Source of the DNA: Escherichia coli
GTDB taxonomy: Bacteria > Pseudomonadota > Gammaproteobacteria > Enterobacterales > Enterobacteriaceae
Reading direction: 5' to 3' (one strand)
Length of the DNA stretch: 64,000 nt
Assembly (NCBI RefSeq): GCF_009931435.1
Contig: NZ_CP043414.1
Positions 46,601-49,600 of the stretch are shown piece after piece (the first letter of the stretch is position 1; each line of letters begins with the position of its first letter). The position numbers were made by a program.

Positions 46601-49600
46601 AAAATGGAGAAAAACGGTCGGCAAATCGTGCGTAAACTGAATGACGATCGTCAGTACACCGCCGCCGATGGCTCTGAAATTTCTCTGCACGGACGTTCGC
46701 TGCTGTTTATCCGCAACGTAGGTCATTTGATGACCATTCCTGTGATTTGGGACAGCGAAGGTAATGAAATTCCGGAAGGTATTCTTGATGGCGTCATGAC
46801 TGGTGCGATTGCCCTCTACGACTTAAAAGTGCAGAAAAACTCGCGTACCGGCAGCGTTTATATTGTGAAACCGAAAATGCACGGTCCACAGGAAGTGGCT
46901 TTTGCCAACAAACTGTTTACCCGCATTGAGACAATGCTTGGTATGAAACCGAATACCCTGAAAATGGGCATTATGGATGAAGAACGCCGGACCTCGCTGA
47001 ACTTGCGTAGTTGTATCGCTCAGGCGAGCAACCGCGTGGCGTTTATCAATACCGGTTTCCTTGACCGTACTGGCGATGAGATGCATTCGGTGATGGAAGC
47101 GGGTCCAATGTTGCGTAAAAACCAGATGAAATCGACGCCGTGGATCAAAGCCTACGAGCGCAACAACGTGCTTTCCGGCCTGTTCTGCGGGCTGCGCGGT
47201 AAAGCGCAAATCGGTAAAGGGATGTGGGCAATGCCGGACCTGATGGCAGACATGTACAGCCAGAAGGGCGATCAGTTACGTGCCGGGGCGAACACGGCCT
47301 GGGTTCCGTCGCCAACTGCCGCTACACTCCATGCGCTGCACTACCATCAAACCAACGTACAGAGTGTGCAAGCCAATATTGCCCAGTCCGAGTTCAATGC
47401 TGAATTTGAACCGCTGCTGGACGATCTGCTGACCATTCCGGTTGCTGAAAATGCTAACTGGTCGGCGCAAGAGATCCAACAAGAGCTGGATAACAACGTG
47501 CAGGGAATTCTGGGCTACGTGGTGCGTTGGGTGGAGCAGGGGATTGGTTGTTCAAAAGTGCCGGATATTCACAACGTGGCGCTGATGGAAGACCGCGCAA
47601 CGCTGCGTATCTCCAGCCAGCATATCGCCAACTGGTTACGTCACGGTATTCTGACCAAAGATCAGGTGCATGCGTCGCTGGAGAACATGGCGAAAGTGGT
47701 GGATCAGCAAAATGCTGGCGATCCGGCATATCGTCCGATGGTCGGGAATTTCGCTAACTCGTGTGCCTTTAAAGCTGCCAGCGATTTGATCTTCCTCGGC
47801 GTGAAACAGCCAAACGGTTATACCGAACCGTTATTACACGCCTGGCGTTTACGTGAAAAAGAAAGTCATTAATAGCATCAAAAAAGCCCCGGCAAGTTTT
47901 ATTGTCGGGGCTATGATAGTAACTGCGGTAGTATATTTATCCCGGAAATAACCGGAGCGATTATCAGGGTTTAACAATATTAAATACCCGTAGCGCATCA
48001 CTAGCGGGACTAAAACAACATTATGGACATCTTTACGATACTCTGCGCCTGTGTGTGCGGAACAGAAACCCTTACCCGATATACTTGTTATGCCAGAGGT
48101 AGCAATTGCGTTAGCGGCGTGCTGTTGCTGTAAAGTATAACGCCTATATTTTACAGTTCAGTCCTCTTTTGCTTATTACAAACCTTAAATATATCAAGTA
48201 TATAAAGATAATAAGAGACTGAACAATATGGTTACCTGGACCCAAATGTATATGCCGATGGGAGGACTGGGGCTATCCGCTCTGGTCGCCCTGATCCCGA
48301 TAATATTCTTCTTCGTTGCACTCGCGGTATTACGTCTGAAAGGACATGTCGCTGGAGCAATAACTCTTATATTATCTATCCTGATTGCAATATTCGCCTT
48401 TAAAATGCCGATTGATATGGCATTTGCTGCTGCGGGCTATGGCTTTATTTATGGATTATGGCCTATTGCGTGGATTATTGTCGCGGCGGTATTCCTGTAT
48501 AAATTAACCGTTGCCAGCGGCCAGTTTGATATTATCCGCAGTTCGGTTATCTCCATCACCGACGATCAGCGTTTGCAGGTGTTACTGATTGGTTTCTCCT
48601 TTGGCGCACTGCTGGAAGGAGCGGCTGGCTTTGGCGCGCCGGTGGCGATTACAGGCGCTCTGCTGGTGGGGCTGGGCTTCAAACCGTTATATGCGGCGGG
48701 GTTGTGTCTGATTGCCAACACTGCGCCGGTGGCGTTTGGTGCGTTGGGCGTGCCGATTCTGGTCGCTGGTCAGGTAACGGGAATCGATCCGTTTGATATT
48801 GGCGCAATGGCGGGACGTCAGTTACCGTTCCTGTCGGTTCTTGTGCCATTCTGGCTGGTGGCAATGATGGACGGTTGGAAAGGGGTGAAAGAGACCTGGC
48901 CAGCGGCGCTGGTTGCAGGGGGAAGCTTCGCTGTCACGCAGTTCTTTACCTCTAACTACATTGGTCCGGAACTGCCGGATATTACTTCGGCGCTGGTGAG
49001 TATTGTCTCACTCGCTTTATTCCTTAAAGTCTGGCGGCCGAAGAATACCGAAACGGCAATCAGCATGGGGCAATCCGCAGGTGCGATGGTGGTAAATAAG
49101 CCATCTTCTGGCGGTCCCGTGCCTTCAGAATATAGTCTGGGGCAAATCATTCGTGCATGGTCACCGTTTTTAATCTTAACGGTACTGGTTACCATCTGGA
49201 CGATGAAACCATTTAAAGCGTTATTTGCTCCGGGCGGTGCGTTTTATTCGCTGGTGATTAATTTCCAGATCCCTCATTTGCATCAACAAGTCTTGAAAGC
49301 GGCACCCATTGTCGCTCAGCCAACGCCAATGGATGCGGTGTTTAAATTCGACCCTCTCTCTGCTGGCGGCACCGCTATTTTTATTGCGGCGATTATCTCG
49401 ATCTTCATCCTCGGCGTGGGGATCAAGAAAGGTATTGGTGTCTTTGCCGAAACGCTAATTAGTCTGAAGTGGCCGATACTGTCGATTGGCATGGTGCTGG
49501 CATTTGCTTTTGTCACCAACTATTCCGGCATGTCCACCACGCTGGCGCTGGTGCTGGCGGGCACAGGCGTGATGTTCCCGTTCTTCTCACCGTTCCTTGG

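What the first reader, a model, noticed from the sequence alone, without database searches (positions are those of the whole stretch)
47880..47910. Weak hairpin between glcB and glcA
agccccg-gcaagttttattgt-cggggct lies just after the glcB stop and about 320 bp before glcA. This could be a partial terminator or processing site that sets the glcB to glcA expression ratio within the glc operon. The stem is short and the loop long, so this is tentative.
Basis: seen in the sequence. Interest (0 to 1): 0.2.

Follow-up and report, generated by a model that had tools for sequence, protein, structure and literature searches.

The report
Stem-loop ending glcB mRNA, reverse-strand terminator
The hairpin just after glcB is real, strong and conserved; published 3'-end mapping in E. 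coli K-12 already puts an RNA end right behind it, and on the opposite strand it has the shape of a textbook terminator for the neighbouring C0719 small RNA, so it is an ordinary, essentially known feature.

Summary
The hairpin is real and stronger than described. It has an 11-bp stem (47885-47895 / 47902-47912, one G.U) and a 6-nt loop. It starts 13 nt after the glcB stop and ends 316 nt before glcA. Core dG is -15.3 kcal/mol (z -4.4), and it ranks 11th among + strand hairpins in the 64-kb window.

It is single-copy and present in 4541 of 5426 complete E. coli genomes. It is kept, with altered stem bases, in E. albertii, two unnamed lineages and Raoultella planticola.

Published Term-seq (Adams et al. 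2021, LB OD 2.0) reports a glcB "primary" 3' end at MG1655 3121590(-).

The sense strand has no U-tract (tail score -2.15, background-like). That 3' end is therefore more likely a hairpin-protected, trimmed or processed end, or weak termination, than canonical termination.

On the opposite strand this gives stem-loop plus U5-7 (score -5.21, top 0.03%). It lies 15 nt downstream of the Rfam C0719 sRNA match (47927-48148, minus).

Ordinary, low novelty.

The parts
45701..47872 (+). glcB (malate synthase G) coding sequence, stop TAA at 47870-47872
   Evidence: ORF list. RefSeq annotation of near-identical loci. Homologs carry malate synthase G Pfam domains.
47880..47885 (+). A6 run immediately 5' of the stem on the glc strand, which reads as a U6 tail 3' of the stem on the minus strand. 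A47885 also forms the outermost A-U pair.
   Evidence: Sequence. An A5-A7 run is kept in all seven orthologous sequences, including Raoultella. Antisense U-tail score is -5.21, matched by 0.03% of window positions.
47885..47895 (+). 5' arm of the hairpin (AGCCCCGGCAA)
47896..47901 (+). 6-nt loop (GUUUUA)
   Evidence: A loop variant GAUUUA occurs in some E. coli.
47902..47912 (+). 3' arm of the hairpin (UUGUCGGGGCU)
   Evidence: Pair counts across lineages.
47916..47916 (+). Position equivalent to the published Term-seq 3' end of the glcB transcript (MG1655 3121590, minus strand), 4 nt after the stem
   Evidence: Adams et al. 2021 Supplementary file 1, LB 2.0 sheet. Mapped onto the window from the printed 61-nt sequence, which differs from the window at one base outside the hairpin.
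47927..48148 (-). Match to Rfam RF00117 (C0719 sRNA), convergent with glcB. Its modelled 3' end lies 15 nt upstream (minus-strand sense) of the hairpin, and the model contains no terminator of its own.
   Evidence: cmscan 285.6 bits, E 5e-75, full length 1-222. Also found in E. albertii and the two 88-89% lineages, but not in Raoultella. Listed at U00096.2 3119380-3119601 (+) with very low read counts.
48228..49910 (+). glcA (glycolate permease) coding sequence, the gene downstream of the hairpin in the same orientation
49920..49946 (+). Stem-loop GCCGGATGAT-CGTTAAT-ATCATCCGGC followed by UUCAUUUACAUUAUU. This is the likely operon-end terminator after glcA, included for contrast with the U-less glcB hairpin.
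   Evidence: Sequence. 34-nt fold -18.7 kcal/mol. U-tail score -3.59, top 2.6% of positions.

Best explanation
The inverted repeat at 47885-47912 marks the boundary between two convergent transcripts, and it works differently on each strand.

Sense strand (shown). On glc mRNA it folds into an 11-bp GC-rich hairpin, and steady-state 3' ends of glcB-containing RNA lie 4 nt behind it.

Sense strand (inferred). No U-tract follows the stem, so most RNA polymerases probably pass it and go on to transcribe glcA. The mapped end would then arise mainly after transcription. A 3'-to-5' exonuclease such as PNPase or RNase II would trim back from a downstream end, created either by RNase cleavage or by Rho termination in the 355-nt untranslated spacer, and would stop at the hairpin. 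This would leave a stabilised glcDEFGB species next to a less stable full-length glcDEFGBA species, favouring GlcB and the oxidase subunits over the permease GlcA.

Antisense strand (inferred from shape and conservation). The same repeat reads as a GC-rich stem-loop followed by U6. That is the form of a canonical Rho-independent terminator. It would end C0719, or any antisense transcript from the spacer, before it enters glcB.
For: The hairpin is real and unusually stable.

A sense-strand 3' end has been mapped 4 nt after the stem, in stationary-phase LB, the only one of the three conditions in which glc-locus 3' ends are listed (Adams 2021).

The sense tail AUGAUAGU scores -2.15, and 36% of window positions score as well, so there is no U-tract. 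The antisense tail UUUUUUGAU scores -5.21, matched by 0.03% of positions.

The layout glcB stop, A5-7, GC-rich stem-loop, no T-run is kept in E. coli, E. albertii, two 88-89% GlcB lineages and Raoultella planticola (80% GlcB). The stem bases change among them: pair 47892/47905 is G.U, G-C or U.G, and Raoultella has an extra C-G pair.

The hairpin is single-copy in 4541 of 5426 complete E. coli genomes. In the genomes inspected, only A-run length and one loop base vary, and one strain carries a deletion.

It stays attached to glcB when an IS5-family element replaces everything downstream (L003).

Stable U-less stem-loops immediately upstream of steady-state 3' ends are the documented signature of trimmed, Rho-terminated E. 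coli mRNAs (Dar & Sorek 2018).

glcDEFGBA is treated as one transcription unit, which requires read-through.

The C0719 Rfam match converges on the hairpin and has no terminator within its own model.
Against: No RNA data were analysed directly. The Term-seq value is a single table entry from one growth condition.

The Rho-dependence data in Adams 2021 come from exponential LB, and no glc gene appears in that file, so they do not address this site.

The spacer downstream shows no clear C-over-G bias. C/G is 0.6-1.4 over 47880-48140, so Rho loading there is not evident.

Dar & Sorek report that protective hairpins typically lack an upstream A-tract. This one has A6.

No 3' end on the C0719-sense strand near 3121621-3121626 appears in any of the three Adams conditions. 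C0719 read counts are very low. It is absent from the current MG1655 RefSeq annotation. No consensus promoter was found for it.

Covariation does not separate the strands: 90.9% of cells pair on the sense strand and 88.3% on the antisense, and each strand has one position where only it pairs.

One natural E. coli strain lacks the 5' arm, so the element is not essential.
Confidence: 0.55

Rival explanations
1. It is a genuine but partial transcription terminator in the glc direction. A fraction of RNA polymerases stop at the hairpin despite the missing U-tract. They might be helped by head-on collision with polymerases coming from the convergent C0719 promoter, or by NusA or NusG. Attenuation would then happen during transcription rather than through RNA stability.
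For: A sense 3' end lies close to the stem. The hairpin is very stable on the sense strand (-15.3 kcal/mol core). An A-tract 5' of the stem is typical of bidirectional intrinsic terminators. glcB and C0719 converge on the hairpin. Wang et al. 2022 report that convergent RNAP collisions positioned by a stem-loop drive bidirectional termination in E. coli.
Against: There is no U-tract: the sense tail score is at background level. The 3' end lies only 4 nt from the stem. C0719 expression is very low and no promoter-like site was found, so collisions would be rare. No C0719-strand 3' end was found in Term-seq.
Confidence: 0.25
2. The element exists only as the intrinsic terminator of C0719 or antisense transcription. 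The sense-strand 3' end is an incidental by-product: any stable hairpin in an mRNA blocks exonucleases. It would have no selected role in glc expression.
For: Only the antisense reading has full canonical terminator anatomy, and its U5-7 run is conserved in all lineages. The three E. coli to E. albertii substitutions all preserve or improve antisense pairing while creating two mismatches on the sense strand. The loop-closing pair is kept on the antisense strand in all 7 sequences but on the sense strand in only 3.
Against: Raoultella keeps the hairpin and A-run but has no C0719 match. No antisense 3' end has been mapped. C0719 is barely expressed. The spacer on that strand is no more structured than shuffles (z -0.32). 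Pair 47892/47905 is maintained as G.U or U.G only on the sense strand in 5 of 7 sequences. The hairpin stays with glcB after an IS insertion removed C0719.
Confidence: 0.15
3. It is a chance inverted repeat, or a copy of a repetitive extragenic element (REP/BIME-like), with no specific role.
For: Short GC-rich palindromes are common in E. coli intergenic regions. REP-like hairpins are among the strongest hairpins in this window.
Against: 0 of 200 shuffles fold as well. The sequence is unique in the window and single-copy per genome. It has no similarity to the REP-like hairpins listed. It is conserved with changed stem bases out to Raoultella, where the flanking sequence has diverged. An RNA 3' end has been mapped at it.
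Confidence: 0.03

Closest known systems
Protective 3' stem-loops of Rho-terminated or processed E. coli mRNAs (Dar & Sorek 2018, NAR 46:6797, PMC6061677)
   Same: A stable stem-loop lies immediately upstream of a precise steady-state 3' end. No U-rich tail follows. It sits a few nucleotides after a stop codon with a long untranslated stretch downstream.
   Different: This one has an A6 run 5' of the stem, which that class typically lacks. No clear C>G region lies downstream. Dependence on Rho or exonucleases is untested. It lies inside an operon rather than at its end.
Intercistronic stabilising hairpins that set gene ratios within operons, for example the REP between malE and malF (Newbury et al. 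1987; recalled from memory, not checked here)
   Same: A hairpin between an abundant upstream product and a membrane-transporter gene downstream in the same operon. The expected effect is upstream product exceeding downstream product through 3' end protection.
   Different: It is not a REP element and is single-copy. The effect on the GlcB:GlcA ratio has not been measured.
Canonical Rho-independent (intrinsic) terminators, including sRNA terminators
   Same: On the minus strand it has a GC-rich 7-bp basal stem (10 pairs in all, with a C.A mismatch), a 6-nt loop and a U6 tail. It is placed 15 nt after the C0719 Rfam match.
   Different: No 3' end has been mapped on that strand. On the glc strand the U-tract is missing, so it is not a symmetric terminator.
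Bidirectional terminators between convergent genes (SEnd-seq, Ju et al. 2019, recalled from memory; Wang et al. 2022 bioRxiv 10.1101/2022.10.23.513370)
   Same: One stem-loop is shared by two convergent transcription units, glcB and C0719.
   Different: Only one flank carries the A/U run. One partner is a barely expressed sRNA candidate. A co-oriented gene (glcA) lies beyond the hairpin and needs read-through.
C0719 RNA (Rfam RF00117)
   Same: It lies directly next to the hairpin on the opposite strand, matching at 285.6 bits.
   Different: The hairpin lies outside the Rfam model, which covers 47927-48148. C0719 function is unknown, its boundaries were reportedly defined by microarray (from memory, source not checked), and it is absent from the current MG1655 RefSeq annotation.

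Membership tests
Canonical intrinsic terminator, glc-sense (+) strand | GC-rich stem-loop | tested here: met
   11 bp, 7 of them G-C/C-G, plus one G.U. dG -15.3 kcal/mol, z -4.4.
Canonical intrinsic terminator, glc-sense (+) strand | U-rich tract immediately 3' of the stem | tested here: not met
   The tail AUGAUAGUAACUGCG scores -2.15, and 36% of all window positions score as well. No lineage has a T-run there.
Canonical intrinsic terminator, glc-sense (+) strand | RNA 3' end mapped at the element | tested here: met
   From the literature: Term-seq 3' end at MG1655 3121590(-), 4 nt after the stem.
Canonical intrinsic terminator, minus strand (C0719 sense) | GC-rich stem-loop followed by a U-tract | tested here: met
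   Basal stem AGCCCCG/CGGGGCU with an inner 3 bp, dG -10.1 kcal/mol. Tail UUUUUUGAU scores -5.21, top 0.03% of positions. The U-run is 5-7 nt in all lineages.
Canonical intrinsic terminator, minus strand (C0719 sense) | RNA 3' end mapped in the U-tract | tested here: not met
   No plus-strand 3' end at MG1655 31216xx appears in any of the three conditions of Adams 2021. Low C0719 expression could explain the absence.
Protective 3' stem-loop of trimmed or Rho-terminated mRNA (Dar & Sorek 2018) | Stable stem-loop immediately upstream of the steady-state 3' end, without a U-rich tail | tested here: met
Protective 3' stem-loop of trimmed or Rho-terminated mRNA (Dar & Sorek 2018) | No A-rich tract upstream of the stem, and C>G enrichment downstream | tested here: not met
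   An A6 run is present. C/G is 0.6-1.4 downstream, with no clear C-rich G-poor region before 48140.
Protective 3' stem-loop of trimmed or Rho-terminated mRNA (Dar & Sorek 2018) | Longer 3' extensions appear with bicyclomycin or in pnp/rnb mutants | not testable with these tools
   This needs RNA-seq from those strains grown under glc-inducing conditions.
C0719 sRNA (Rfam RF00117) | Match to the covariance model above the gathering score | tested here: not met
   The model matches 47927-48148 (-) at 285.6 bits. The hairpin at 47885-47912 lies outside that match. It is a neighbour and possible terminator, not part of the family model.
REP/BIME repetitive palindromes | Many dispersed copies per genome with the REP consensus | tested here: not met
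   Unique in the window. Median of 1 place per genome in 4541 genomes. The sequence is unlike the REP-like hairpins seen.
Bidirectional terminator between convergent units | 3' ends of both convergent transcripts at one stem-loop flanked by A-run and U-run | tested here: inconclusive
   The convergent arrangement and shared stem-loop are present. Only one flank carries the run, and only one strand has a mapped 3' end.

The most novel reading that the evidence does not exclude
The element could be a conserved one-way gate inside an operon. It would be leaky for glc-sense polymerases, so glcA is still made, and tight for antisense polymerases. Transcription of the convergent C0719 RNA into the hairpin would then tune how many glc-sense polymerases get through, by collision at the stem-loop. 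C0719 would act through transcription in cis to regulate the GlcB:GlcA ratio, rather than as a base-pairing sRNA.
Probability: 0.08. Interest if true: 0.45.

Novelty: already known. Interest (0 to 1): 0.15.

Why it matters
It matters little beyond correct annotation.

- It gives the glc operon a defined internal 3' end. That could explain higher expression of glycolate oxidase and malate synthase G than of the permease.
- It suggests that the true 3' end of the poorly defined C0719 RNA, if that RNA is real, is the U-tract at 47880-47885. That is about 45 nt beyond the Rfam boundary.
- It shows why terminator calls should be made on both strands.

Tried and rejected
- The built-in promoter/terminator scan found nothing in 47600-48400. 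I did not work out which of its rules excluded this hairpin, so I scored the tails with my own script instead.
It returned one E. coli locus plus relatives of 74% identity or less, which was useless for the spacer.
- A second protein search, seeded with Raoultella GlcB, found no further enterobacterial lineages.
- Supplements were not held for Dar & Sorek 2018, Conway 2014 and the nanopore paper. The Cappable-seq GTF was stored only in part. Thomason 2015 and Hershberg 2003 were not held at all. The SMRT-Cappable-seq supplements had no entry for this locus. As a result I could not check a TSS for C0719 or for glcA.
- Protein-coding readings were rejected. The minus-strand ORF 47849-48001 (50 aa) runs through the hairpin, has no Pfam hit, and has no similarity to the 94-aa minus-strand ORF called in Raoultella. 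The + strand 36-aa ORF at 48023-48133 has no Pfam hit, and the equivalent ORF is only 12 codons long in Raoultella.
- A riboswitch or other known RNA family was rejected. C0719 is the only Rfam hit at E<=1 in 45000-51000.
- Whole-spacer structure: neither strand folds better than shuffles (z -0.32 and -1.21). The hairpin is the only standout structure.
- Covariation failed to discriminate the strands. The MAFFT alignment shifts Raoultella's extra C-G pair, which creates an artefactual mismatch at column pair 16/42.
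Full report
**Observation.** The window carries glcB (45701-47872, +) and glcA (48228-49910, +), separated by a 355-nt spacer. 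The gene names were confirmed from RefSeq annotation of near-identical E. coli loci, including K-12 MG1655. The arms are 47885-47895 (AGCCCCGGCAA) and 47902-47912 (UUGUCGGGGCU), giving 11 pairs (one G.U) around a 6-nt loop.

- The 31-nt core folds at -15.3 kcal/mol against -5.1 +/- 2.3 for shuffles (z -4.4, 0 of 200 as good). The 56-nt context folds at -22.3 kcal/mol (z -5.6).
- In a 34-nt sliding fold of the whole window it scores -21.1 kcal/mol against a background mean of -5.7 (sd 3.2). It ranks 11th of 96 stable + strand clusters; REP-like hairpins are among those ranking above it.
- It is unique in the window.

The hairpin is therefore not weak and not a chance feature.

An A6 run (47880-47885) directly precedes the stem, and no T-run follows it.

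- A TransTermHP-style tail score gives -2.15 for the glc-sense tail (AUGAUAGU...). That is background level, since 36% of window positions score as well.
- The opposite-strand tail (UUUUUUGAU...) scores -5.21, matched by only 0.03% of positions.
- The stem-loop after the glcA stop (49920-49946) scores -3.59.

On the minus strand the element is therefore a textbook Rho-independent terminator. It has a 7-bp GC-rich basal stem, a C.A mismatch and three inner pairs, at -10.1 kcal/mol. Rfam places C0719 (RF00117) at 47927-48148 on the minus strand (285.6 bits, full length). Its 3' end points into the hairpin from 15 nt away, and the model contains no terminator of its own.

**Experimental evidence from the literature.** Adams et al. 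2021 (eLife, PMC7815308) list a Term-seq 3' end at MG1655 3121590 on the minus strand, which is the glc-sense strand. The entry is in Supplementary file 1, LB OD600 2.0 sheet, with an average of 47,630 reads. It is classed as "primary" for glcB, meaning within 50 bp downstream of the gene, and as antisense to C0719.

- The printed 61-nt sequence is TCATTAATAGCGTCAAAAAAGCCCCGGCAAGTTTTATTGTCGGGGCTATG-A-TAGTAACTGC. The 3' end is at position 51 of such strings, a convention I checked against the sgrS entry.
- This places the end 4 nt after the stem, equivalent to window 47916.
- No 3' end on the C0719-sense strand near the U-tract appears in any of the three conditions.
- The paper's Rho dataset comes from exponential LB and contains no glc-gene entry, so it says nothing about this site.
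- C0719 is listed at U00096.2 3119380-3119601 (+). Its read counts are very low and rise in transition and stationary phase.
- C0719 is not in the current MG1655 RefSeq annotation, and its function is unknown.
- The literature treats glcDEFGBA as one transcription unit.

**Comparative evidence.** The 60 nt around the hairpin occur once per genome in 4541 of 5426 complete E. coli genomes.

- In the E. coli genomes inspected, only the A-run length (A6 or A7) and one loop base vary. One strain (AST217) has lost the A-run and the 5' arm.
- When an IS5-family element (ISKpn26) replaced everything downstream in strain PEC408, the hairpin stayed with glcB.
- Enterobacterial GlcB relatives are few: E. 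albertii (96%), two unnamed lineages (88-89%) and Raoultella planticola (80%). The next relatives sit at 67-74% in Pseudomonas and Burkholderiales.
- All of these enterobacterial relatives keep the order glcB stop, A5-7, GC-rich stem-loop, no T-run.
- The stem bases differ. Pair 47892/47905 is G.U in E. coli, G-C in E. albertii and Raoultella, and U.G in the 88-89% lineages. Raoultella also has an extra C-G pair.

Pair counts give 90.9% of cells paired on the sense strand and 88.3% on the antisense strand. Each strand has one position where only it pairs, so covariation supports a conserved stem but does not say which strand is selected. The three E. coli to E. albertii substitutions favour the antisense fold (-19.9 vs -16.7 kcal/mol). 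The E. coli and 88-89% lineages favour the sense fold. C0719 matches are found in the Escherichia-like lineages but not in Raoultella, which still keeps the hairpin and the A-run. The spacer as a whole is no more structured than shuffles on either strand (z -0.32 and -1.21).

**Mechanism.**

- Shown: a strong, conserved hairpin, and a mapped glc-sense RNA 3' end 4 nt behind it under conditions when the operon is on.
- Inferred for the sense strand: with no U-tract, most polymerases should read through toward glcA. The steady-state end would then be produced mainly by 3'-to-5' exonucleolytic trimming, or by endonucleolytic processing of longer RNA, halted at the hairpin.
- This is the behaviour Dar & Sorek (2018) documented for U-less stem-loops at the ends of Rho-terminated mRNAs. 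It would stabilise the glcDEFGB part of the message relative to glcA.
- Weak points: this hairpin has an upstream A-run, which that class usually lacks, and the downstream spacer has no clear C>G region. Rho involvement is therefore unproven.
- Inferred for the antisense strand: the conserved U-run makes the element a competent intrinsic terminator for C0719 or other antisense transcription, shielding glcB.
- Rival: direct partial termination in the sense direction, possibly helped by convergent-polymerase collisions at the stem-loop (Wang et al. 2022). I rate this lower because of the missing U-tract and the very low C0719 expression.

**Comparison with what is known, and novelty.** The closest matches in how the element works are protective 3' stem-loops and intercistronic stabilisers on the sense strand, and a canonical intrinsic terminator on the antisense strand. 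It fails the U-tract criterion for a sense-strand intrinsic terminator. It lies outside the C0719 Rfam model, and it is not a REP element. The 3' end is already tabulated in a published dataset and C0719 is an Rfam family, so this is a known and ordinary feature of a well-studied genome. What remains undetermined is how the sense 3' end is made and whether C0719 really ends at this U-tract.

**Verdict.** Interest is low (0.15).

Noticed in passing
window 48128-48156: AT-rich palindrome CTGTAAAGTATA-ACGCC-TATATTTTACAG (12-nt arms, 92% complementary). It sits at the modelled 5' end of C0719, about 72 nt upstream of the glcA ATG. It is conserved in Escherichia-like lineages but not in Raoultella. 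It could be an operator or an RNA hairpin.
   Followed up: partly
window 48196-48227: The block CAAGTATATAAAGATAATAAGAGACTGAACAAT immediately upstream of the glcA start is nearly invariant out to Raoultella, although the rest of the spacer has diverged. It may hold the glcA ribosome-binding region, a glcA-proximal promoter, or both.
   Followed up: no
window 48023-48133 (+): A 36-codon Cys-rich ORF (MDIFTILCACVCGTETLTRYTCYARGSNCVSGVLLL). Its start block ATGGACATCTT is largely conserved across lineages (ATGGATGATTT in the 88% lineage), but the ORF is only 12 codons long in Raoultella and it has no Pfam hit. It is probably not a gene, and the conserved block remains unexplained.
   Followed up: partly
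window 47927-48148 (-): The Rfam C0719 match is strong (285.6 bits), yet C0719 is absent from the current MG1655 RefSeq annotation. Its published read counts are very low, and the region folds no better than shuffles (z -0.32). Its status as a real sRNA looks doubtful.
   Followed up: partly
window 49920-49946 (+): A stem-loop GCCGGATGAT/ATCATCCGGC with a U-rich tail lies 10 nt after the glcA stop. It is the likely terminator at the end of the glc operon.
   Followed up: partly
L003 4185-5345 (E. coli PEC408, NZ_CM168008.1): An ISKpn26 (IS5-family) element is inserted directly after the hairpin, after CTATGATAG. The C0719 region and glcA are gone, and type II Zorya defence genes lie nearby.
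   Followed up: partly
L094 2488-2550 (E. coli AST217, NZ_AP043630.1): A natural deletion removes the A-run and the 5' arm of the hairpin (TAATAGCGTC|GCAAGTTTTATTGTCGGGGCT). glcB and glcA are intact. This strain is a ready-made mutant for testing the hairpin's role.
   Followed up: partly
L085 5526-5789 (E. albertii CP117620.1): glcA is reduced to an 87-aa lactate-permease fragment. The hairpin and the C0719-like spacer are retained.
   Followed up: no
L088 5195-5215 (Raoultella planticola): An additional hairpin GCGCCA-TAGA-TGGCGC lies between the glcB stop and the conserved A-run hairpin.
   Followed up: no
window 45701-47872 and loci L005-L092: The enterobacterial GlcB clade is narrow: Escherichia, Raoultella planticola and two unnamed lineages. 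The next relatives are at 67-74% identity in Pseudomonas and Burkholderiales. The patchy distribution hints at horizontal acquisition of the glc locus.
   Followed up: no
window 47700-48400: This stretch is only about 97% identical to most E. coli. Just 15-18 of 5426 complete genomes reach 99% or more, so the window comes from an uncommon E. coli lineage.
   Followed up: no
window 11682-11715, 54966-54999, 55099-55132: REP-like hairpins (GCCGGATAAGGCG...GCATCCGGC) are among the most stable local structures in the window. Two of them lie just after the sslE/yghJ ORF.
   Followed up: no
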